Shown: positions 3,105 through 32,285 of the stretch, piece after piece
Layout: every line of letters starts with the position of its first letter
Position numbering within the stretch: position 1 is the stretch's first letter
Source: a virus
Length of the DNA: 33,909 bases
Strand: one strand, 5' to 3'
Virus record (IMG/VR): IMGVR_UViG_3300011116_000306
Coordinates: 1 to 33,909 of that record
Made by a program: the position numbers and the translations under genes
The notes under the pieces: model-generated
Told to the model about the DNA's origin: nothing
Database searches by the model: none
What the model saw: the letters and a program-made list of their open reading frames with translations, nothing else

Positions 3105-4082
3105 ATGGCTTTTGCGAATACGTCCGTTACGGACATTATTGCTACTACGATTCAGTCGCGTACTCGCCAGATTGCGGATAACGTCACCAAAAACAATGCT
3201 TTGCTTGCCCGTCTTAATAACCGTGGCAACGTAAAGCCGTTTGGCGGCGGTAACGTGATCTTCCAGGAACTTTCGTTCCAGCAGAACGGCAATGCCGGTT
3301 TCTATAGCGGTTACGATCTTCTGCCGGTTGCGGCGGCTGACGTTATCAGCGCGGCTGAATTTAACATTAAGCAGCTTGCTTGCCCGGTCGTTATGAGCGG
3401 CCTGGAAATGTTGCAGAACGCTGGCCGTGAGCAGTTTATTGACTTGCTCGAAGCCCGCATGAACGTTGCCGAAAGCACGATGGCTAATAAGCTGGCGCAG
3501 TCGGTTTATAGCGATGGTACTGGTTCTGGCGGTAAGGAAGTGACCGGCCTTGATGCGGCGGTTCCTTCTGACCCGACCACTGGCACTTACGGCGGCATTG
3601 ACCGCGCTACTTGGTCTTTCTGGCGTTCGCAGCTTTATGACTTTAGCTCTCAGAGTGTCACTCCGTCCTCGACCACGATCCAGGCGGCGATGAACACTCT
3701 TTGGTCCTCGTTGGTTCGTGGCTCTGATCGTCCTGATTTGGTCGTTCTGAGCAATTCCTACTGGACCTATTACATGACTTCGCTCCAGGCGCAGCAGCGG
3801 TTTACCGACCCCAAGACTGGCGATCTTGGTTTCCCGACGATCAAGTTTATGGATGCTGACGTTGTGCTTGATGGCGGTATTGGTGGCTATTGCCCGGCCA
3901 ATACTGGCTTCATGCTCAACACGAAGTACATTTTCCTGCGTCCTCACAAGGATCGTAACATGGTTGCTCTTAGCCCGACGCGGCGCTATGCGATCAACCA
4001 GGACGCGGAAGTTCAGATTCTGGCTTGGGCTGGCAATCTGACTTCTTCGGGCGCTCAGTTCCAGGGTCGTATCCAGAATTAA
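3105..4082 (+). CDS. Major capsid protein (325 aa)
   Basis: Follows the scaffold gene. GGAGAA SD, long leader, strong terminator downstream. Size and sequence are typical of podovirus HK97-fold capsid proteins. Confidence 0.8.
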   Translation: MAFANTSVTDIIATTIQSRTRQIADNVTKNNALLARLNNRGNVKPFGGGNVIFQELSFQQNGNAGFYSGYDLLPVAAADVISAAEFNIKQLACPVVMSGLEMLQNAGREQFIDLLEARMNVAESTMANKLAQSVYSDGTGSGGKEVTGLDAAVPSDPTTGTYGGIDRATWSFWRSQLYDFSSQSVTPSSTTIQAAMNTLWSSLVRGSDRPDLVVLSNSYWTYYMTSLQAQQRFTDPKTGDLGFPTIKFMDADVVLDGGIGGYCPANTGFMLNTKYIFLRPHKDRNMVALSPTRRYAINQDAEVQILAWAGNLTSSGAQFQGRIQN

Positions 4083-21034: not shown

Positions 21035-22960
21035 ATGAAAAATTCAGAATTTCTTGCGGCGCTTGGGGGCGCTGGCGAAGATCATTACCTATGGATTACG
21101 CACTTTGCGGCTGATCCTAGTCAGGCAAGCCAAGGTCAATGGGCTGGTCGAATGTACCAGCACAAAATCAGCCAAGCTAACTTGATTGACACAGTTTCCA
21201 GCCAGAATGTTTATTTCTGTCCAGCCGTTCTATCTGGCCTTGATGAAAGCGGATCGTTTAAACGCAGCAAAAACCACTTTTGCAGACTCGCCGCGCTTGG
21301 CGTTGATGACGTAAACATTGATGACATTAACGGCAAAGTCTCATGGATATTTGAGACAAGCCCGCTGAATTACCAAGCTGGCATATTGCTGGATGAAGCC
21401 GACCAGGACGCAGCCAATTTGGCGCTGGTCGATGCTGTTATGTCTGAATTGGCTGATAAAGGGCTTATTAAAGCAGACAAGTCTGGCAACAATGCTGTTC
21501 GTTATATGCGGTTGCCTCATGCAAAAAACACAAAACAACGCGCTACTGGACCGCATGACGTTCGTGTTGTTAGTTCTGACTTAATCAATAAATACAGCCT
21601 TGCAGATGCCTGTGCTGCTTTTGGAATTGATTTGGATGCCTTACGCGGCAAGCAATCAACTACAAAAGAAAGCATTAAAAATGTTACAGGCTCTAGCCAT
21701 GCAGAGCTAATTGCAGCATTAGCACAAGATGATCCTGCTGATCGCAGCTATCACGACCCATTACTAAAGCTATCTAGCAAACTTGTGTCTGCTGGACTAA
21801 ATCCAGGCGCAGTAGTCGAGCATTTGCGCGGGCTTATGCTGGCTATCCGTCCGCAAGACGCAACAGAACTTAGCCGGTGGCAATCACGCTACGATGAAAT
21901 TCCCAGGCTTGTTCTTGGCGCTCAAAAGTTTGCACCGGAGCCAAAGCAACAGCCTGTATCAGATGGCGGATTGCTGCTTGATATATCGACATTGGAAAGC
22001 CGGTCAAAAGCCGTTAAATGGCTTGTTAAAGGCTTTATTCCAGCCGACAGCATGGGCGTCTTGTTTGGTGCGTCAGGCGCATACAAGTCATTTCTGGCAA
22101 TAGATTTGGGATTGCATATTTCGCACAGTTTAAACTGGGTAAACCGTAAAACAAAGCCAGGCCCGGTTGTTTATGTCGCATCTGAAGGCGGCGCTGGTAT
22201 TTATCGCCGGATTGCAGCTTGGCATAAGCTAAACAAACGCCAACTGCCGAATAACTTTTGGACTTGTGCCACGCCGCTGGTTTTGACGGATGAAGATAGT
22301 CTGAAGGCTCTCAGAAAAGACATTCAGGCATTACCTGAACAGCCTAGCTTGATTATTGTTGATACATTCAGCCAGACGTTTTTTGGAGATGAAAACGCGG
22401 CCACGGATGTAAGTGAATATTTCCGGCAGATTAACACTCATTTGCGTGAGCCATTTAATGCGACGGTTATCGTAATCCATCACATTGGACACTCAAATGA
22501 TAATGCCGGTCGTCCTCGCGGCTCTAGCGCGTTCACAGCAAACGTAGATTTTCTGCTGGCTGTCAGGCGCGACGGCGATCTTGCAGCGTCGATTGAAGTA
22601 ACCAAACAGAAAGATGGCGATAAAATATCATCCCAGGCATTTAACCTGGAATCTCAGCCGTTATGGGAAGATGAAGATGGAGATACGATTACTTCGCTTG
22701 CAGCAAAGCATGTAAACATTATTGAGCAGATTAAAACCGGCAATGCAACGCTAGGCGAGACAGATAAAGTTATTTTGGATTTTATTACATTGAACGTCAG
22801 CGTTACCAAGAACGATGTAACTGCATTTGTTGCAAAGAAGTCAAAGAATGAAAAATCAGCTTACGTTATGGCAATGCGCTCGTTGAAAAAGCTGCAAGAG
22901 CTTACGCTGATTAGGCACACCATAGACGACAAGTATGTAGTCATGGGCGAGGTTTTATAA
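21035..22960 (+). CDS. Primase / RecA-like (AAA_25, RepA-type) replicative ATPase fusion (641 aa)
   Basis: C-terminal half has Walker A in GVLFGASGAYKS, Walker B in SLIIVDTFS, then VIHHIGHS...GRPRGSSAF. N-terminal half has LGVDDVN and ETSPLNYQAGILL, reminiscent of RepB-prime/primase-polymerase-type primases. Confidence 0.65.
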   Translation: MKNSEFLAALGGAGEDHYLWITHFAADPSQASQGQWAGRMYQHKISQANLIDTVSSQNVYFCPAVLSGLDESGSFKRSKNHFCRLAALGVDDVNIDDINGKVSWIFETSPLNYQAGILLDEADQDAANLALVDAVMSELADKGLIKADKSGNNAVRYMRLPHAKNTKQRATGPHDVRVVSSDLINKYSLADACAAFGIDLDALRGKQSTTKESIKNVTGSSHAELIAALAQDDPADRSYHDPLLKLSSKLVSAGLNPGAVVEHLRGLMLAIRPQDATELSRWQSRYDEIPRLVLGAQKFAPEPKQQPVSDGGLLLDISTLESRSKAVKWLVKGFIPADSMGVLFGASGAYKSFLAIDLGLHISHSLNWVNRKTKPGPVVYVASEGGAGIYRRIAAWHKLNKRQLPNNFWTCATPLVLTDEDSLKALRKDIQALPEQPSLIIVDTFSQTFFGDENAATDVSEYFRQINTHLREPFNATVIVIHHIGHSNDNAGRPRGSSAFTANVDFLLAVRRDGDLAASIEVTKQKDGDKISSQAFNLESQPLWEDEDGDTITSLAAKHVNIIEQIKTGNATLGETDKVILDFITLNVSVTKNDVTAFVAKKSKNEKSAYVMAMRSLKKLQELTLIRHTIDDKYVVMGEVL

Positions 22961-25030: not shown

Positions 25031-25264
25031 TCACTTCCACCACCACTTGCCTTCCAGCAGCCGCCCCAAGATCGACAACGTACAGCCAAAGCACAACAGC
25101 AAACCCATCACATACACCGTCCACTGCGCTGCGTTGCTGGTCAGGCCAACGCGATACGCTACGTTGCTGATGTACTGACACACGCCGACAAAAGCCAACG
25201 TGACAAGGATGATTGCGCCCATGACACTTAAAAGCGCACCAACGGCTTGAATGTCGTCTTTCAT
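25031..25264 (-). CDS. Membrane protein (77 aa, two TM helices)
   Basis: AAAGGAAA SD. Hydrophobic helices AVGALLSVMGAIILVTLAFVGV and WTVYVMGLLLCFGCTLSILG. Confidence 0.6.
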   Translation of the reverse strand: MKDDIQAVGALLSVMGAIILVTLAFVGVCQYISNVAYRVGLTSNAAQWTVYVMGLLLCFGCTLSILGRLLEGKWWWK

Positions 25265-25288
25265 GTTTAGTTTCCTTTTGTTGAAATG

Positions 25289-25546
25289 TTAGCCGTCGCC
25301 GGAGCCGTAGCCGGAGCCGTAGCCGGAGCCGTAGCCGTAGCCGTCGCCGTAGCCGTAGCCGGAGCCGTAGCCGGAGCCGGAGCCGTAGCCGGAGCCGGAG
25401 CCGTCGCCGTAGCCGTAGCCGTAGCCGGAGCCGTCGCCGTAGCCGGAGCCGGAGCCGTCGCCGTAGCCGTAGCCGGAGCCGTAGCCGGAGCCGGAGCCGT
25501 CGCCGTAGCCGTAGCCGGAGCCGTAGCCGTCATTTACTTTGCCCAT
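25289..25546 (-). CDS. Alternating (Gly-Tyr/Ser/Asp)n low-complexity mini-protein (85 aa); reading frame uncertain
   Basis: ATG 25546 has GAGG 6 nt upstream. Product is MGKVND + (G-X)39 + G with X only Y, S or D. Two other minus-strand frames are also open across the array. Confidence 0.45.
   Translation of the reverse strand: MGKVNDGYGSGYGYGDGSGSGYGSGYGYGDGSGSGYGDGSGYGYGYGDGSGSGYGSGSGYGSGYGYGDGYGYGSGYGSGYGSGDG
25292..25528. repeat. Hexanucleotide array: GCC + 39 units of GTAGCC / GGAGCC / GTCGCC
   Basis: Read directly from the sequence. No unit deviates from these three variants. Confidence 0.95.
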
Positions 25547-25911
25547 CCCGCACCTCGAAGGCACTTTTCGCCTTCTTTCGTCGTCGGAATAATCTCAATC
25601 ACTTGCATCAGCAAAATGCTGTCAACGGAATCACTAATCTTGGATGTCTTTTCCACGCCCTTGGACGCAATTTCGTGCAGCGTATTGGCACCCGTCCACG
25701 ACCAAATGCGCTTGGCATCAGTCAGCACACATTCCTGGCCGTTGCGGGATTTCAAAACCCCCACATGCACACCAGCCGAATAAGTGCGGACTACAACGTA
25801 TTTCCCAACAAACTCGCAGCACATATTGTTAGACGCCGCCTGTTGATTACCAAACATACACGCAAGTTGCTTGGCTTCTCCGATAGTCAAATCATCAATT
25901 TTCATGTTCAT
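25534..25911 (-). CDS. Conserved-looking hypothetical phage protein (125 aa)
   Basis: AGGAGAA SD. The sequence GKYVVVRTYSAGVHVGVLKSRNGQECVLTDAKRIWSWTGANTLHEIA resembles proteins I have seen in other phages. No family name assigned. Confidence 0.65.
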   Translation of the reverse strand: MNMKIDDLTIGEAKQLACMFGNQQAASNNMCCEFVGKYVVVRTYSAGVHVGVLKSRNGQECVLTDAKRIWSWTGANTLHEIASKGVEKTSKISDSVDSILLMQVIEIIPTTKEGEKCLRGAGWAK

Positions 25912-26175: not shown

Positions 26176-26281
26176 AACACCGCACTACGCCTTTCTGTGG
26201 TTCCCAAACAGCCCATGCACCTTGCGCCAATCCAGCGCCGCACCTGCATTTGCAAGCCCATTTGACGTTTATTGCCTTCAT
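26045..26281 (-). CDS. Small zinc-ribbon-like protein (78 aa as an ORF; C-terminal half doubtful)
   Basis: ATG 26281 forms an ATGA overlap with the upstream stop. MKAINVKWACKCRCGAGLAQGAWAVWEPQKGVVRCYECK carries CxC...CxxC. The tail looks like non-coding translation. Confidence 0.4.
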   Translation of the reverse strand: MKAINVKWACKCRCGAGLAQGAWAVWEPQKGVVRCYECKIAVQNTVQRSAGQPSPTSEAGKRFEKPAQQNAGTYKFFA

Positions 26282-26817
26282 TCGCAGCGCCATTCTTCAA
26301 CCTGGCGCTTCAGCCCTCTGGGCCATTCGGTCGAAGTCGTAAATGACTTGTCACGAAAAACTACTTTGTCGGTCGGCTGAATAGTCAAACGTCCATTGTT
26401 TAAACGCACAAACGTAAACTCTTTGCTTTGCCTTGGGTCACGGCTGAAAGCATCGTTGATTGGCGCAACAGTGAATAGATATACGCCTTTGTGCCCACCT
26501 AGCGTTTCACAATCCAAACCATCCAACGCCGGATAAACCAACGTGCTAAACTGTGGTCCGTAGCAATCCCAAATCTGCGCGTCCTTAATGCTCCAATCCA
26601 GCTTGGGACACTGTGTAAACGCCAGCGCATGGGGCGGTAGGTTGCGATAAATCGCACCGTTTTCCAAAAGCACGTTACAGCCCCAAGCCAATCCGTATTT
26701 GCTTACCAGGCCAAACCAACGCACCGGCACAAAGCCTATCGCCTCACGCATAAAAAACGCGCTGTCTGCGTATATGTCCAAATGATACGGCAGCGCACCG
26801 CTATTACTGTAGATCAT
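26278..26817 (-). CDS. Hypothetical protein (179 aa)
   Basis: Long ORF in the leftward operon. No motif recognised. Confidence 0.6.
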   Translation of the reverse strand: MIYSNSGALPYHLDIYADSAFFMREAIGFVPVRWFGLVSKYGLAWGCNVLLENGAIYRNLPPHALAFTQCPKLDWSIKDAQIWDCYGPQFSTLVYPALDGLDCETLGGHKGVYLFTVAPINDAFSRDPRQSKEFTFVRLNNGRLTIQPTDKVVFRDKSFTTSTEWPRGLKRQVEEWRCE

Positions 26818-26857: not shown

Positions 26858-27127
26858 CTATTGGCAACACTGTTTGACCATCTGCTCGATGCACAATTCA
26901 TCAGTCTGGATATGCTGATAAATGTCACCTGGCGCGTCAGTGCCGTCAGCCAGCTTGGCCGATAGTACGTCGATCTCTGGCCCGTGCGCGGGTTCCCAGT
27001 AGCTACCAGGAAACCCTGGCATGTAATTGTATTGCACCGTCACATCAATTTCCTCCGGCGCGTCCTCGGGATGGTCGGGGCGTAGGTGCGGCAGATAGAT
27101 TGACAGCGTGATTTCGTGTTTACGCAT
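26858..27127 (-). CDS. Hypothetical acidic protein (89 aa)
   Basis: Start overlaps the upstream stop by 8 nt. Translation MRKHEITLSIYLPHLRPDHPEDAPEEIDVTVQYNYMPGFPGSYWEPAHGPEIDV... Confidence 0.55.
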   Translation of the reverse strand: MRKHEITLSIYLPHLRPDHPEDAPEEIDVTVQYNYMPGFPGSYWEPAHGPEIDVLSAKLADGTDAPGDIYQHIQTDELCIEQMVKQCCQ

Positions 27128-27866
27128 GGCACTGCTCCAACAGCGAGATTAACTTATCGGACATGCGCTGATATGCCCCCGCCGCCGCATCCGCCGCCTC
27201 CGCCGCCACATCCGCCGCCGCCCTCGCCGCCGCCCTCGCCGCCGCCCTCGCCGCCGCCCTCGCCGCCCACCTCGCCGCCCACGCCGCCGCATCCGCCGCA
27301 TCCGCCGCCGCCGCCCACGCCGCCGCCCGCGCCGCCCACCTCGCCGCCGCTTTCGCCGCATCCGCCACCCACGCCTCCGCCCGCGCCGCCTCCGCCGCCC
27401 CCCGCGCCGCCGCCTCACGGTCAACCGGCTCGCCGCAAGTCAGCGGCAGCAACACATCAGCGCATTTCGCAATAGCAGCGTTTACACGCTTGTCGTTTGT
27501 TTTCGGCAATTCGTCGGTCAACAGCCAGTGCAAGAACTTCCACCCCACCCGCGATAAATCCGCGCCAGGGATGATGGCGGCGCTAAACCGCACAGGCCAC
27601 TTCATCGCGTCGGCATTGGCAAGCCCCTCAAATATTGCATCTTCTAGCCGCGCCAGCATCTGCGGGATACCGAGCAGCCGTTCGTATTCGGCATGTTTGT
27701 TTGTTTCAATCGCGCCGAGACTGTGCAAAGTACAGCCCACCGCGCACCCTTTGCCGTCCTCCCAATACTGGCCCTTCACCAGCCGGTCGACGTCGGCGTG
27801 AGCCTGTAGATCAGCCAGTAGCTTGGCCTTGATGGCCGGGTCATTGTGATATGCGAGCAGGGTCAT
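27120..27866 (-). CDS. Two-domain protein (248 aa): globular N-terminal domain plus Ala/Arg/Trp-rich repeat domain
   Basis: Start set at ATG 27866 (ATGA overlap). Non-repetitive N-terminus (...KGQYWEDGKGCAVGCTLHS...) followed by ...AARWAARAAAWAAAADAADAAAWAARWAARAAARAAARAAARAAADVAAEAADAAAGA and the tail YQRMSDKLISLLEQCHA. Confidence 0.65.
   Translation of the reverse strand: MTLLAYHNDPAIKAKLLADLQAHADVDRLVKGQYWEDGKGCAVGCTLHSLGAIETNKHAEYERLLGIPQMLARLEDAIFEGLANADAMKWPVRFSAAIIPGADLSRVGWKFLHWLLTDELPKTNDKRVNAAIAKCADVLLPLTCGEPVDREAAARGAAEAARAEAWVADAAKAAARWAARAAAWAAAADAADAAAWAARWAARAAARAAARAAARAAADVAAEAADAAAGAYQRMSDKLISLLEQCHA
27214..27261. repeat. Four perfect tandem copies of the 12-mer GCCGCCGCCCTC (encodes AARA x4 on the minus strand)
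   Basis: Counted directly. It is embedded in about 240 nt (27176-27420) of GCC-periodic sequence. Confidence 0.95.
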
Positions 27867-27952
27867 GCGATCACCATAAGCCAAAGATAAATTACACCTA
27901 ACAGCGCGAGCAGCGCCGCACCTTCTGCGATTGCGATAAATAGCTGTTTCAT
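27863..27952 (-). CDS. Tiny hydrophobic peptide (29 aa, single TM)
   Basis: Not in the track. Translation MKQLFIAIAEGAALLALLGVIYLWLMVIA. ATGA overlaps with both the upstream stop and the downstream start. Confidence 0.45.
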   Translation of the reverse strand: MKQLFIAIAEGAALLALLGVIYLWLMVIA

Positions 27953-28200: not shown

Positions 28201-28223
28201 GGGCGGGGCGCTAGGCCCCGCCC
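28201..28223 (-). terminator. GC-rich hairpin (GGGCGGGGC-n5-GCCCCGCCC) after the SprT-like gene; weak terminator or RNA-stability element
   Basis: Perfect 9-bp stem. On the minus strand it is followed by ATATTTCTTG, a poor U-tract. A second small hairpin (28225-28239) encloses the stop codon. Confidence 0.4.
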
Positions 28224-28230
28224 GGTTGCG

Positions 28231-28794
28231 TTACGCAACGTTGATTGACCCGCCGCAATGGCAAGTCGGAAGGCCAGCGTCCACATTCTTTTGCGCTGTG
28301 CGGCAGGTCCAGCCGCAATCGTCGCAAGCCAACTTAATCATGCGGGTATTTTGCTTTTTGCGCCCGGAGAGTGCGGTATTGAGCGCCGCATGAGGATATG
28401 CGCCAAGCTGAGAGATAATGGCCGTTAGGCGGGCTGTAAGATCGGCACCGGCAGTTGTGCTAGTCATTTTGCCCTCCAGGCCAAGGGCAAGCGCAAGGCG
28501 TTTAAACGCGCCTTTGTGCCCATGCTCTAGGCCAACAGCGGCATGAACCAACTCATGCACAAGGATAGCCAGGACGTTGGTTGCGTTGGACTGTGAGGGA
28601 CAAATAAAGACTTCGGTGGTTGCATCGGCGCTTGCGGCAGGGGACCAGCACTCGCCAATGCGCTTGAGCTTTCCGCCCTTGCCGCCAGCAGGGATACCGA
28701 CAGATACGCGGACGGGAGGGAGCGGGTAACCCTGGGCATTGAACCAGGGGGACATAAGAGCGGTAGCAGCGTTAAGGTATTCTTCGCGGGTCAT
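28231..28794 (-). CDS. SprT-like zinc metallopeptidase with C-terminal zinc ribbon (187 aa)
   Basis: HExxH in LAILVHELVHAAVGLEHGHKGAFKRLA. C-terminal CDDCGW...CHCGG. Confidence 0.65.
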   Translation of the reverse strand: MTREEYLNAATALMSPWFNAQGYPLPPVRVSVGIPAGGKGGKLKRIGECWSPAASADATTEVFICPSQSNATNVLAILVHELVHAAVGLEHGHKGAFKRLALALGLEGKMTSTTAGADLTARLTAIISQLGAYPHAALNTALSGRKKQNTRMIKLACDDCGWTCRTAQKNVDAGLPTCHCGGSINVA

Positions 28795-30950: not shown

Positions 30951-32285
30951 ATGGACATTAATGAATACGTCCCGCGAGACATATTTTTGCCGCTGCACCA
31001 GCGGGACAAACGTTGGGCAGTTGTTATAGCGCACCGCCGCGCTGGCAAGACTGTTGCGATGTGCGCGGATATATTGATTAGCGCATTGCAGTGTCGGCAT
31101 CCAAAGCCGCAGTTTGCGTATTTAGCGCCGTTTCGGGATCAGGCGAAGAAGGTGGCGTGGAGTTATATTAAGGATTTGAGCAAACCGTTATGGGCGGCGC
31201 AGCCTAATGAAACGGAATTGCATGTAAGTTTATTTAACGGAAACAATGGGGTTAGCCGGATTTATGTAGGTGGTGCGGATCATCCTGATGCTTGGCGCGG
31301 GATGTATTTTGACGGTGTTGTGTTGGATGAGGTTGGGCAGATTAGGCCGAGTGCGTGGTATTCGGTTTTGCGCCCGGCATTATCGGATCGGCGCGGGTGG
31401 GCGATATTTGCTGGCACCCCGGCTGGTAAGAACTTCTTTTGGCAGATGCGCGAGGAAGCTCGGTTGAATCCTGGGACGCACATGCTTTTGGAATTACCGG
31501 CGTCCAAGACGAATATTTTGCATCCTGATGAGTTGCGGGATGCGCGGGCGCAGATGACTGAAGAAACGTATGCGACTGAATATGAAATTAGTTTTGATGC
31601 GGCTATGCCTGGGGCGTATTACTCCAAATTGATTGGGGAGGCGTATGACGAGGGGCGGGTTGGTGTATTTCCGGCCAGTTCTGAATTTCCGGTCGATCTT
31701 GTGGCTGACCTTGGGTACACGGACAGTTGCAGTTGGTGGGGTTGGCAGACGCAGCCTGATGGCTACAAGATTGTAGATTTTTACGAAGCCGATAATCAGC
31801 CGATTGCTCATTATATTGAATGGGTTAAAACCAGACCGTATAAGGTTAGGGATATATATTTGCCGCATGATGCGAAGGCCAAGAGCCTTCAGACCGGCAA
31901 GAGCATTATTGAGCAGTTTTTAGCAAACGGCATACACCCGAAGCTGGTTCCTGAACTGTCTTTGCAGGATGGGATTGAGGCGGCCAGGCTTACTTTGCCG
32001 AAGTGTTGGTTTGACGAAAAAACGGTTTATGATGGGCTGGAACACTTAAGGGCGTATAAGCGGGAGTGGGACGAGCGCACCCAGACGTATCGCAACAGGC
32101 CACGGCATGACCAGCATAGCCATGCGTCTGATGCGTTTAGGTATTTTGCGCTGAGTTGCAAGCCGGTATCGAGCGCAAAACGGAGCAGCACTGCAAGCAG
32201 CGTTTACACGGCCAGAAGTATGTATGAATTTAATTTAGAAGATATTTGGGAATGTCAGCCTAAAACAAGCGGAAGGTTGGGCTAA
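30951..32285 (+). CDS. terL: Terminase large subunit (444 aa)
   Basis: Walker A-like AHRRAGKT, Walker B in GVVLDEVGQ, and a C-terminal RNaseH-like nuclease region ending HDQHSHASDAFRYF. Confidence 0.9.
   Translation: MDINEYVPRDIFLPLHQRDKRWAVVIAHRRAGKTVAMCADILISALQCRHPKPQFAYLAPFRDQAKKVAWSYIKDLSKPLWAAQPNETELHVSLFNGNNGVSRIYVGGADHPDAWRGMYFDGVVLDEVGQIRPSAWYSVLRPALSDRRGWAIFAGTPAGKNFFWQMREEARLNPGTHMLLELPASKTNILHPDELRDARAQMTEETYATEYEISFDAAMPGAYYSKLIGEAYDEGRVGVFPASSEFPVDLVADLGYTDSCSWWGWQTQPDGYKIVDFYEADNQPIAHYIEWVKTRPYKVRDIYLPHDAKAKSLQTGKSIIEQFLANGIHPKLVPELSLQDGIEAARLTLPKCWFDEKTVYDGLEHLRAYKREWDERTQTYRNRPRHDQHSHASDAFRYFALSCKPVSSAKRSSTASSVYTARSMYEFNLEDIWECQPKTSGRLG

What the first reader, a model, noticed from the sequence alone, without database searches (positions are those of the whole stretch)
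25289..25546. Perfect 39-unit hexanucleotide array encoding a silk-like alternating (Gly-Tyr/Ser/Asp)n mini-protein, open in several frames
Seen in the sequence:
- 25292-25528 is GCC plus 39 back-to-back hexamers. Only three variants occur (plus strand GTAGCC, GGAGCC, GTCGCC; minus strand GGCTAC, GGCTCC, GGCGAC), with no other substitution or indel.
- Read on the minus strand from ATG 25546 (GAGG 6 nt upstream, overlapping the last codons of the upstream gene), it gives MGKVND + (G-X)39 + G with X only Tyr, Ser or Asp.
- This frame stops at 25289, 24 nt before the SD/ATG of a 2-TM membrane-protein gene.
- The block GYGSGYGYGDGSGS occurs twice in tandem at the N-terminus, a partial 42-nt higher-order period.
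- The array is also open in the minus (Ala-Thr/Pro)n frame (25267-25533, whose ATG abuts the upstream TAA), in the minus (Leu/Arg)n frame, and in a plus (Ala-Val/Gly)n frame. ORF logic alone therefore cannot fix the coding frame. I favour Gly-X because of its SD.

Established knowledge: strict Gly-X alternation with X = Ala/Ser/Tyr defines the beta-sheet crystallites of Bombyx fibroin. [G/S]Y[G/S] low-complexity tracts drive FUS-type condensation.

Inference: this may be a self-assembling, condensate-forming or slippage-variable protein expressed from the accessory/host-takeover operon, possibly working with the adjacent membrane protein. I know of no described phage function for such a protein.
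Basis: partly seen in the sequence, partly recalled or inferred. Interest (0 to 1): 0.8.

Follow-up and report, generated by a model that had tools for sequence, protein, structure and literature searches.

The report
Phage Gly-Tyr/Ser/Asp repeat protein cassette
The perfect hexanucleotide array is a real gene for an 85-residue (Gly-Tyr/Ser/Asp)n protein that, in well over a hundred unrelated phages, always sits just after a small Sm-like protein gene, forming a widespread, hypervariable and so far undescribed two-gene module of unknown function.

Summary
Window 25292-25528 (minus strand) is 39 perfect hexamers (GGCTAC x18, GGCTCC x15, GGCGAC x6) plus GGC, inside an 85-codon ORF, 25289-25546.

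Comparison with relatives settles the frame. The upstream gene (25534-25911, Pfam DUF6948) has at least 585 relatives in IMG/VR and 2,798 clusters at 50% identity. In 121 of 144 fetched loci it is followed directly by a (Gly-X)n ORF of 10 or more dipeptides; most exceptions are truncated contigs. Codon sets differ between lineages, but X stays aromatic (31%), acidic (24%) or small/polar (42%), with 1.3% basic residues.

The repeat gene's start codon usually overlaps the end of DUF6948 (modal overlap as in the window), with an enriched Shine-Dalgarno motif. DUF6948 models confidently as an Sm/LSm-like barrel. Arrays differ by many hexamers between phages with identical flanks, break short-read assemblies, and are unannotated or annotated in the wrong frame in GenBank.

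The adjacent 2-TM gene is not a conserved partner. No paper describing the module was found.

Best reading, which is inferred: an acidic, tyrosine-rich disordered protein acts with its Sm-like partner, like an Hfq or LSm low-complexity tail supplied in trans. Function is untested.

The parts
25289..25546 (-). Gene for the 85-aa (Gly-X)n protein, MGKVND(GX)39G plus stop. It is 7.9 kDa, net charge -6, pI about 4, with 18 [G/S]Y[G/S] triplets.
   Evidence: The frame is fixed by comparison with relatives.
25292..25528 (-). Perfect array of 39 hexamers (GGCTAC/GGCTCC/GGCGAC) plus GGC. Every codon ends in C. GC is 76%.
25534..25911 (-). Partner gene: a 125-aa DUF6948 (PF22253) protein with a predicted Sm/LSm-like small beta-barrel.
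   Evidence: Pfam E 5e-29. (pLDDT 87, core above 92). (all top-50 PDB matches are Sm/LSm proteins)..
25534..25546 (-). 13-nt overlap between the two genes. The ATG of the repeat gene is formed by the A of GGA plus the TG of the conserved Trp codon near the DUF6948 C-terminus (GGA TGG GCA AAG TAA). This is a translational-coupling arrangement.
   Evidence: The same overlap occurs in 34 of 99 related loci, and 91 of 99 overlap in some way.
25553..25556 (-). Shine-Dalgarno-like GAGG, 6 nt upstream of the ATG and embedded in the DUF6948 coding sequence.
   Evidence: A core SD tetramer is present upstream of the repeat-gene start in 43 of 99 relatives, against 3 of 99 control positions.
25031..25264 (-). 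Adjacent 77-aa 2-TM protein gene. It is probably co-transcribed, but it is not a conserved member of the cassette.
   Evidence: Searches give no significant family match. One search shows no flanking gene shared by more than 8 of 93 loci. One search shows no terminator between the genes.

Best explanation
Shown:
- The array is the body of a real protein-coding gene read in the Gly-X frame.
- It is the second gene of a conserved, mobile two-gene phage cassette. The first gene encodes a DUF6948 small beta-barrel protein with a predicted Sm/LSm-like fold.
- The repeat gene is read from its own SD and ATG, which are embedded in the last codons of the first gene. The two are therefore co-transcribed and probably translationally coupled.
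- The product has a 2-17-residue leader followed by little else than Gly alternating with aromatic (Tyr, less often Phe or Trp), acidic (Asp, less often Glu) and small (Ser, less often Asn, Ala or Thr) residues. It has almost no basic residues, usually no C-terminal tail, no signal peptide and no predicted fold.
- The DNA evolves by gain, loss and reshuffling of hexamer units. Length and unit order change quickly while the frame and the composition are kept.

Inferred:
- The protein is an acidic, intrinsically disordered 'sticker-and-spacer' polymer, with Tyr as stickers, Gly/Ser as spacers and Asp for solubility and charge. It works together with the slightly basic Sm-like partner.
- It would act like the Gly/aromatic/acidic C-terminal tail of Acinetobacter Hfq, or the low-complexity tails of eukaryotic Sm/LSm proteins, but supplied in trans.
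- Bound to an oligomeric hub, it would either gate the hub's nucleic-acid-binding surface or cross-link hubs into multivalent assemblies (a condensate or gel).
- This would happen in the infected cell's cytoplasm during early infection, because the cassette usually lies among early recombination and replication genes.
For: Gene and frame:
- Between lineages the Gly codon changes (GGC, GGG or GGT) and the third base of X changes (C or T). The amino-acid pattern stays S 35%, Y 28%, D 23%. His and Cys are about 0.7% and 0.3%, although each is one step from TAC.
- Apparent Gly-Thr/Pro arrays are the other frame of Y/S/D arrays that use GGG.
- Variants with Trp+Glu (L125) or Phe/Ala/Val (L136) keep the aromatic + acidic + small triad.
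- All 118 arrays of 30 aa or more contain aromatic residues and 116 contain acidic residues. Only 1 has more than 5% K/R.

Cassette:
- 85 of 92 viral loci and 48 of 52 genome loci have a Gly-X run just after DUF6948.
- With a stricter definition the count is 121 of 144. Only 7 such runs occur elsewhere in 770 kb of flanks, and most of those lie just upstream of DUF6948.
- The reverse search from the repeat protein recovered proteins that again lie directly after a DUF6948 gene, in 2 of 2 cases checked.
- No other flanking gene is conserved.

Coupling:
- 91 of 99 repeat-gene starts overlap the DUF6948 gene end, with a modal gap of -13 nt as in the window.
- SD motifs are enriched, 43 of 99 against 3 of 99.

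Partner fold:
- The AlphaFold2 model has pLDDT 87.
- The top 50 Foldseek PDB matches are all Sm/LSm/SmAP proteins, with target-normalised TM-score up to 0.76. Phage proteins annotated 'Sm-like' or 'RNA binding' also appear in BFVD.

Physical link:
- One natural fusion of DUF6948 to a degenerate Gly-rich tail exists (P0258).
- The charges are complementary: the repeat protein has median net charge -8, and DUF6948 has median pI 8.2.

Disorder:
- The single-sequence AlphaFold2 model has pLDDT 36.5.

Precedent:
- A. baumannii Hfq has an Sm core plus a disordered tail of GGFGGQ repeats and an acidic tip. Both are needed for its function and autoregulation (PMC11617691).

Genomic setting:
- The cassette lies beside Erf/SSB, RecE/RecT, ERF/Gp157, YqaJ or XerD genes.
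- In the window it lies in a minus-strand operon of small genes between the primase/helicase and terminase genes.
Against: - No experiment or expression data exist for any member.
- The Sm-like assignment rests on fold only. Foldseek E-values are about 1e-3 and identity is 11-22%. No sequence-level match to solved structures was found. The invariant DUF6948 residues (RTYSAGVH, ARRIWxW) are not the canonical Sm RNA-binding loops.
- Ring formation, RNA binding and binding to the repeat protein could not be tested.
- Low single-sequence pLDDT is weak evidence for disorder.
- Only one fusion protein was found, on a 1.9-kb contig.
- Tyr and Asp are only slightly more evenly interspersed than random (mean z about 0.35).
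- The hypervariability would fit an arms-race (anti-defence) role equally well.
Confidence: 0.4

Rival explanations
1. Anti-defence or host-takeover decoy. The acidic, Tyr/Ser-rich polymer, presented or chaperoned by DUF6948, would mimic nucleic acid. Alternatively it would act as a sponge or pseudo-substrate for a host enzyme such as a kinase, protease or nucleic-acid-binding defence protein. Its length and unit order would vary under an arms race.
For: - It lies among small accessory or early genes.
- It is extremely hypervariable between otherwise identical phages.
- It is strongly acidic with no basic residues. This resembles known acidic DNA-mimic anti-restriction proteins such as Ocr (own knowledge).
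- The cassette moves between unrelated genomic contexts.
Against: - The same composition is kept in phages of very different host phyla: Proteobacteria, Bacteroidota, Firmicutes, Planctomycetes, Spirochaetes and CPR. This argues for a universal target or an intrinsic physical property rather than a host-specific defence protein.
- There is no match in PADLOC or any other annotated family, although those libraries are not built for anti-defence genes.
- Variability in repeat number is expected from the DNA structure alone.
Confidence: 0.2
2. Silk-like structural material. The strict Gly-X alternation would form antiparallel beta-sheet crystallites or amyloid-like fibres. These would be used in the virion or as an extracellular or cell-envelope structure, possibly together with the neighbouring membrane protein.
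For: - Gly-X alternation is strict, as in Bombyx fibroin crystalline blocks (own knowledge).
- One GenBank record calls the homologue 'fibroin heavy chain-like protein'.
- In phage Pappous the cassette lies between tail genes.
Against: - There is no signal peptide or membrane anchor.
- X is Tyr/Ser/Asp with about 2% Ala. A quarter of X positions carry a negative charge, which disfavours tight sheet stacking.
- The usual neighbours are recombination and replication genes, not structural genes.
- The 2-TM neighbour is not conserved.
- AlphaFold2 gives no beta-solenoid or sheet.
Confidence: 0.08
3. Programmed -1 ribosomal frameshift. Ribosomes finishing DUF6948 would slip on GCA AAG (Lys AAG to AAA) next to the TAA stop and continue into the Gly-X frame. 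The real product would then be an Sm-like protein with a Gly-X tail, not a free mini-protein.
For: - In the window the Gly-X frame is -1 relative to DUF6948. The sequence A-AAG-TAA is a plausible slip site next to a stop (own knowledge of A AAG slippage).
- 62 of 99 loci share this frame relation.
- One fused protein exists.
Against: - 36 of 99 loci have the other frame relation.
- Nearly all have their own ATG, and SD motifs are enriched.
- Some cassettes have a gap between the genes, or the repeat gene lies upstream.
- The slippery sequence was not checked for conservation.
Confidence: 0.05
4. Non-coding DNA repeat, for example a recombination hotspot, replication iterons or a structural DNA element, whose open frames are incidental. 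Alternatively, an assembly artefact.
For: - Most of the other frames are open across the array.
- The array breaks short-read assemblies.
- Gene callers disagree on the frame.
Against: - The DNA units are not conserved between lineages, while the Gly-[aromatic/acidic/small] protein pattern is.
- A start codon with an SD is conserved.
- Basic residues and stop codons are excluded.
- The array start is seen independently in at least 10 sequencing runs, anchored by unique sequence. Its existence is therefore not an artefact, although its exact length might be.
Confidence: 0.03

Closest known systems
Hfq of Acinetobacter baumannii: Sm core plus a disordered C-terminal tail of GGFGGQ repeats with an acidic tip (PMC11617691)
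   Same: An Sm-type barrel is combined with a tandem-repeat region that is glycine-rich, aromatic and acidic. In Hfq, the number of repeats matters for function.
   Different: Here the two parts are separate, translationally coupled genes, and they are phage-encoded. The repeat is a strict dipeptide (Gly-X) rather than a hexapeptide. DUF6948 shows no sequence similarity to Hfq and is closer in fold to archaeal and eukaryotic Sm/LSm proteins. RNA binding is untested.
Eukaryotic Sm/LSm proteins with low-complexity tails: SmD1/D3/B Gly-Arg dipeptide repeats, and the Lsm4 Q/N-rich tail that promotes P-body assembly (own knowledge)
   Same: An Sm fold is paired with a low-complexity tail. SmD1 even carries a strictly alternating Gly-X dipeptide repeat. 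The tails mediate higher-order RNP assembly.
   Different: The eukaryotic tails are basic (Arg) or Q/N-rich and are part of the same polypeptide. The phage protein is acidic and Tyr-rich, and it is a separate chain.
FUS-family prion-like low-complexity domains, with [G/S]Y[G/S] motifs in which tyrosine drives phase separation (own knowledge; abstract of PMC10888811)
   Same: The window protein has 18 [G/S]Y[G/S] triplets in 85 residues. It has Gly/Ser spacers, predicted disorder, and a partner resembling an RNA-binding fold.
   Different: It has no Gln, far more Asp and strict two-residue periodicity. It is about 8 kDa and free-standing. No phase-separation data exist.
Bombyx mori fibroin heavy-chain crystalline repeats (GAGAGS/GAGAGY) (own knowledge)
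   Same: Strict Gly-X alternation, with Ser and Tyr among the X residues. A GenBank annotator used this name for the homologue in Ralstonia phage NK-7.
   Different: Fibroin X is mostly Ala. Fibroin is a secreted protein of thousands of residues with terminal domains. The phage X set is Tyr/Ser/Asp with about 2% Ala, and there is no signal peptide.
Perfect tandem repeats in Borg extrachromosomal elements that create new disordered regions (PMC9879509, abstract seen)
   Same: Perfect in-frame tandem DNA repeats in a mobile element that evolve rapidly and encode low-complexity or disordered protein segments.
   Different: Borg repeats arise independently in many different genes. Here one specific repeat protein with a fixed composition is conserved next to one specific partner across many phage lineages.
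EBNA1 Gly-Ala repeat of Epstein-Barr virus (own knowledge)
   Same: A virus-encoded, length-variable Gly-X repeat.
   Different: It is an internal cis-acting region of a large protein, with X = Ala. It acts on proteasomal processing and translation in eukaryotic cells.

Membership tests
DUF6948 + (Gly-X)n phage cassette (defined here) | A PF22253 gene is followed directly, on the same strand, by a (Gly-X)n ORF. | tested here: met
   The window gene at 25534-25911 matches PF22253 (E 5e-29) and is followed by ORF 25289-25546. The same arrangement is seen in 121 of 144 related loci.
DUF6948 + (Gly-X)n phage cassette (defined here) | X is drawn from aromatic, acidic and small residues, with basic residues nearly absent. 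| tested here: met
   Window X = Y18/S15/D6. Across the family X is 31% aromatic, 24% acidic, 42% small/polar and 1.3% basic.
DUF6948 + (Gly-X)n phage cassette (defined here) | The start codon of the repeat gene overlaps the end of the DUF6948 gene. | tested here: met
   The window overlap is 13 nt. The same spacing is found in 34 of 99 loci, and 91 of 99 overlap in some way.
Sm/LSm/Hfq superfamily (for the partner protein) | Sm fold: a strongly bent five-stranded beta-barrel, usually preceded by an N-terminal helix. | tested here: met
   The AlphaFold2 model has pLDDT 87 and five strands. All top-50 Foldseek PDB matches are Sm/LSm/SmAP proteins, with TM-score up to 0.76 and rmsd 2.9 Å over 82 columns. 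E-values are only about 1e-3.
Sm/LSm/Hfq superfamily (for the partner protein) | Sm1/Sm2 sequence motifs, or a sequence-level match to Sm/Hfq families. | tested here: not met
   Pfam matches only DUF6948. A profile search of PDB sequences finds nothing significant. The conserved motifs RTYSAGVH and ARRIWxW are not Sm1/Sm2 motifs.
Sm/LSm/Hfq superfamily (for the partner protein) | Hexameric or heptameric ring and RNA binding. | not testable with these tools
   Only monomer prediction was available. Tandem double-DUF6948 proteins (P0181, P0201) hint at self-association.
Silk fibroin heavy-chain crystalline repeats | Strict Gly-X alternation. | tested here: met
   39 consecutive Gly-X dipeptides.
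Silk fibroin heavy-chain crystalline repeats | X mostly Ala, then Ser. A secreted giant protein with non-repetitive termini. | tested here: not met
   The window protein has no Ala, and Ala is about 2% of X across the family. The protein is 85 aa with a 6-residue leader, no signal peptide and no tail.
FUS-type prion-like low-complexity domain | A high density of [G/S]Y[G/S] motifs in a disordered Gly/Ser-rich sequence. | tested here: met
   18 triplets in 85 aa. AlphaFold2 pLDDT is 36.5.
FUS-type prion-like low-complexity domain | Gln/Asn-rich, nearly uncharged composition. Demonstrated phase separation or labile cross-beta polymers. | tested here: inconclusive
   Composition was tested and not met: no Gln, 7% Asp in the window protein and 23% of X positions across the family. 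Phase behaviour cannot be tested with these tools.
Polyglycine-II / polyproline-II helix bundle proteins (snow-flea antifreeze, phage S16 gp38 type) | Gly at every third position (G-X-X or GGX motifs). | tested here: not met
   The period is 2 residues (6 nt), not 3.
Glycine-rich antimicrobial peptides | A secretion signal and a cationic mature peptide. | tested here: not met
   There is no signal peptide. Net charge is -6 in the window protein and the family median is -8.

The most novel reading that the evidence does not exclude
The cassette could be a minimal, phage-encoded condensate or gel system. An oligomeric Sm-like hub and a free, acidic poly(Gly-Tyr/Ser/Asp) 'sticker-spacer' chain would together build a membraneless compartment or RNP/ssDNA assembly in the infected bacterium. 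Material properties would be tuned by rapid gain and loss of hexamer units. This would be a prokaryotic-virus counterpart of LSm/FUS-type granules, used across many bacterial phyla.
Probability: 0.25. Interest if true: 0.9.

Novelty: new variant of a known kind. Interest (0 to 1): 0.78.

Why it matters
If the reading is right, thousands of phage lineages infecting very different bacteria carry a tiny two-gene module. One product is among the most extreme low-complexity proteins known, and the other has an Sm-like fold.

- It would give a simple, genetically tractable bacterial system for testing how tyrosine-rich low-complexity proteins work with Sm-type hubs. That question is so far studied mostly in eukaryotic RNA granules.
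- It would assign a partner and a testable role to a Pfam domain of unknown function, which has 2,798 clusters at 50% identity.
- There is a practical side. The array breaks short-read assemblies: many of the fetched IMG/VR loci, and all 10 Logan contigs examined, end in or just after it.
- In public phage genomes the gene is left unannotated or called in the wrong frame. Phage annotation pipelines systematically miss or mistranslate it.

Tried and rejected
- Megablast of 26 kb of the window against 50,697 phage records found no match.
- tblastn with the repeat protein found nothing, because of the low-complexity filter.
- Pfam, PHROGs, NCBIfam and PADLOC gave nothing meaningful for the repeat protein. 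Only sub-threshold low-complexity hits appeared, to TrAA12 (window protein) and Keratin_2_head (two relatives).
- A profile search of PDB sequences with DUF6948 found nothing significant.
It was repeated with alignment A2.
- Single-sequence AlphaFold2 of the repeat protein gave no fold.
- Rfam found no RNA family anywhere in the window.
- Literature searches for DUF6948, 'fibroin heavy chain-like' plus phage, literal repeat strings, phage Sm-like glycine-rich proteins and phage-encoded phase separation found nothing describing the module.
- The idea that the 2-TM neighbour is a partner was rejected. It is not conserved.
- Apparent Gly-Thr/Pro and Gly-Leu/Arg variants were rejected as separate types. 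They are other frames of Y/S/D or S/E/W arrays.
- An obligate frameshift fusion was considered unlikely, because both non-zero frame relations occur and the repeat gene has its own SD and ATG.
- Extra domains fused to some repeat proteins gave no informative family hit. The only match was a sub-threshold TIGR02996 hit.
Full report
**1. The observation**

The minus strand of window 25292-25528 is 39 consecutive hexamers, GGCTAC (18), GGCTCC (15) and GGCGAC (6), followed by GGC. There is no other change. TRF reports period 6, 40.2 copies and score 335. The array is 76% GC in a 49% GC window.

From ATG 25546 the frame reads MGKVND(GX)39G and stops at 25289-25291. GAGG lies 6 nt upstream of the ATG. 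The ATG sits inside the last codons of the upstream gene.

**2. What the window is**

The window is a phage genome segment.
- Plus strand: major head protein (3105-4082), virion proteins and a tail fibre.
- Minus strand: RusA, Cas4-type exonuclease, SSB and Sak4 (16.3-20.7 kb).
- Primase/helicase at 21035-22960.
- Large terminase at 30951-32285.

The array lies in a minus-strand run of small genes without assigned function, about 30.7 to 23.5 kb. A strong hairpin terminator on that strand at 28223-28201 suggests a transcription unit starting below 28.2 kb. No terminator separates the array gene from its neighbours. No near-identical phage record exists.

**3. The key finding: a conserved partner**

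The upstream gene (25534-25911, 125 aa) is Pfam DUF6948 (E 5e-29). Its homologues in Ralstonia phage NK-7, Vibrio phage IKEMa6-1 and Pectobacterium phage Pappous are 39-48% identical. Each is followed directly by an ORF made of Gly-X dipeptides with X = Y/S/D/F/T/E.

I then fetched 92 viral loci and 52 genome loci through the DUF6948 protein alone.
- 85 of 92 viral loci and 48 of 52 genome loci have a (Gly-X) run of 5 or more starting within a few tens of nucleotides of the DUF6948 stop, on the same strand.
- Most exceptions are contigs that end within 300 nt of the gene.
- With a stricter definition (10 or more dipeptides, containing both aromatic and acidic residues), 121 of 144 loci have such a run right after DUF6948. 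Only 7 further runs occur in 770 kb of flanking DNA, and most of those lie just upstream of DUF6948.
- The reverse search, starting from the repeat protein, recovered proteins that again sit directly downstream of a PF22253 gene, in 2 of 2 cases checked.
- All-against-all clustering of flanking ORFs found no other gene shared by more than 8 of 93 loci.

So this is a two-gene cassette in variable surroundings, and the 2-TM neighbour in the window is not part of it.

Host assignments span many phyla.

**4. The reading frame**

Within any one array the codons are nearly uniform. Between lineages the codon set changes:
- Gly is GGC in most lineages, GGG in some (L038, L039, L019) and GGT in L010.
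- X codons end in C in some lineages and in T in others.

Arrays that first looked like Gly-Thr/Pro are the second Gly-alternating frame of Tyr/Asp/Ser arrays built on GGG.

After choosing frames accordingly, 4,428 X positions are S 35%, Y 28%, D 23%, N 3.5%, F 2.4% and A 1.9%. His and Cys, each one mutational step from TAC, are 0.7% and 0.3%. Basic residues total 1.3%. Divergent members replace Tyr by Trp or Phe, Asp by Glu, and Ser by Ala, but keep the aromatic + acidic + small triad (L125, L034, L136).

This pattern shows selection on the protein in the Gly-X frame. It is the opposite of what a non-coding or other-frame role predicts.

**5. Gene architecture**

In 99 complete repeat ORFs:
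- The start codon overlaps the end of the DUF6948 gene in 91. The commonest spacing (34 loci) is the 13-nt overlap seen in the window. In the window the ATG is built from the conserved Trp codon near the DUF6948 C-terminus.
- A core Shine-Dalgarno tetramer lies 4-16 nt upstream in 43 of 99, against 3 of 99 at a control position.
- Both non-zero frame relations occur, 62 and 36. A frameshift fusion is therefore not required.
- Leaders are mostly 2-17 residues, and 72 of 99 proteins end exactly with the repeat.
- A few carry an extra N- or C-terminal domain without informative family matches.

**6. Rapid evolution, and its practical consequences**

- L004 and L007 are 100% identical over the DUF6948 gene, 1 kb upstream and 600 nt downstream. 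Their arrays differ by 22 hexamers.
- The 10 displayed short-read contigs, out of 17 that encode the window's exact DUF6948 protein, all stop 14-32 nt into the array. The first four units, anchored by unique sequence, differ between samples: YSYY, YYDD, SYYD, YYYS and SSYD.
- Many of the fetched IMG/VR loci end in or just after the array.
- The RefSeq record of Iodobacter phage PhiPLPE leaves the gene unannotated. Chlorobiaceae phage CV-1-33 annotates the Ala-Met/Leu frame. NK-7 calls it 'fibroin heavy chain-like protein'.
- Repeat collapse during assembly could inflate apparent length differences. Only long reads can fix the exact length of the window's array.

**7. The partner's fold**

An AlphaFold2 model built from 40 homologues has mean pLDDT 87, above 92 for residues 36-120. 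It shows five strands, a helix between strands 3 and 4, and a C-terminal helix.

All 50 best Foldseek matches in the PDB are Sm/LSm/archaeal SmAP proteins. The best target-normalised TM-score is 0.76, with rmsd 2.9 Å over 82 columns. E-values are only about 1e-3 and identity is 11-22%. In BFVD, phage proteins annotated as Sm-like or RNA-binding follow the DUF6948 proteins. Sequence-only searches see nothing.

So the fold is Sm-like, but membership at the motif level is not shown. Ring formation and RNA binding are untested.

DUF6948 proteins are mildly basic (median pI 8.2). The repeat proteins are acidic (median net charge -8; window protein -6, pI about 4, 7.9 kDa). One protein fuses DUF6948 to a degenerate Gly-rich tail, and two proteins are tandem double DUF6948. 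The repeat protein alone gives no confident fold (pLDDT 36.5).

**8. How it most likely works**

Shown: this is a co-transcribed pair of genes, probably translationally coupled. It encodes an Sm-like barrel and a free, acidic, aromatic-rich Gly-X polymer. The pair is conserved as a unit, usually among early recombination and replication genes (Erf/SSB, RecE/RecT, ERF/Gp157, YqaJ, XerD).

Inferred: the polymer acts on or with the barrel protein, in the way the Gly/aromatic/acidic tail of Acinetobacter Hfq serves its Sm core (PMC11617691). The low-complexity tails of eukaryotic Sm/LSm proteins are a similar case (own knowledge). Either it occupies the hub's basic nucleic-acid-binding surface, or it cross-links oligomeric hubs through multivalent Tyr contacts into a condensate or gel. 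The window protein has 18 [G/S]Y[G/S] triplets, the motif class known from FUS-type domains (own knowledge).

I put this at about 0.4.

Rivals:
- Anti-defence decoy or nucleic-acid mimic: 0.2.
- Silk-like structural fibre: 0.08.
- Frameshift fusion as the main product: 0.05.
- Non-coding repeat or artefact: 0.03.

**9. Comparison with what is known, and novelty**

No family library names the repeat protein. Six literature searches found no description of the cassette.

The closest known arrangements are Sm/Hfq proteins with low-complexity tails and FUS-type Tyr-rich domains. Silk fibroin shares only the alternation. I therefore classify it as a new variant of a known kind: an Sm-type barrel plus a low-complexity tail, here split into two genes, phage-borne, strictly dipeptidic and acidic. 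There is a reasonable chance that experiments would show something without precedent in phages.

**10. Verdict**

The suggested link to the membrane protein is not supported. The real context is a widespread Sm-like + (Gly-Tyr/Ser/Asp)n cassette. Interest is high (0.78), because the cassette is common, unstudied, easy to test, and systematically mishandled by assemblers and annotators.

Noticed in passing
window 27176-27414, inside ORF 27120..27884, minus strand: A second tandem repeat (TRF periods 12 and 21) encodes an Ala-rich AARAAAR/AAWAAR C-terminal region of a 254-aa protein with no family match. The opposite strand and other frames read as Pro-rich and Arg-rich ORFs. Short-read contigs from other samples also break here and carry a different repeat variant.
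   Followed up: partly
L145 about 1170-1440 (Iodobacter phage PhiPLPE, NC_011142) and L146 4286-4531 (Chlorobiaceae phage CV-1-33, MT192033): PhiPLPE leaves the Gly-X gene unannotated in a 272-nt 'intergenic' gap. CV-1-33 annotates the same kind of array in the wrong frame (MAMAMALAM...)..
   Followed up: yes
L005, L017, L020-L022, L027-L029, L031, L035, L036, L038, L040 and others; L150-L159: Many of the fetched IMG/VR loci, and all 10 Logan contigs with the window's exact DUF6948 gene, end inside or just after the array. The cassette is therefore a systematic assembly breakpoint in phage metagenomics.
   Followed up: partly
window 25541-25546, and related loci: The ATG of the repeat gene is made from the last base of one codon plus the TG of the conserved Trp codon in the DUF6948 C-terminal motif (L-R-x-A-x-W-x-K). 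Part of that motif's conservation may therefore serve the overlapping start site and SD of the downstream gene.
   Followed up: partly
L014, L015; P0125, P0152, P0160; P0138, P0158; P0170, L080, L101: Some Gly-X proteins carry extra domains. These are a 155-aa C-terminal domain (L014/L015), a C-terminal domain of about 55 aa (P0152 type), or an N-terminal 'ADWLEE'-like segment. The last gives a sub-threshold match to TIGR02996 (rpt_mate_G_obs, E 9e-5). None is informative about function.
   Followed up: partly
P0181, P0201, P0258 (L160 1227-1766): Two proteins are tandem duplications of the DUF6948 domain. One protein fuses DUF6948 to a degenerate Gly-rich tail, and it comes from a single 1.9-kb contig.
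   Followed up: partly
L011 2695-4810; L026, L033, L050, L078, L079 upstream of the DUF6948 match: There are gene-order and copy-number variants. L011 has several Gly-X ORFs on both sides of DUF6948. In five other loci a Gly-X ORF lies upstream of DUF6948.
   Followed up: no
window 28201-28223, minus strand: A strong terminator-like hairpin (9 G-C pairs followed by a T-rich tail) lies just downstream of ORF 28231..28794. It probably separates two minus-strand transcription units.
   Followed up: no
window 26278-26817, minus strand: This 179-aa ORF matches phrog_3704, which PHROGs labels 'ferredoxin' (moron/AMG category, E 3e-18). It has no Pfam or NCBIfam support, so the label looks doubtful.
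   Followed up: no
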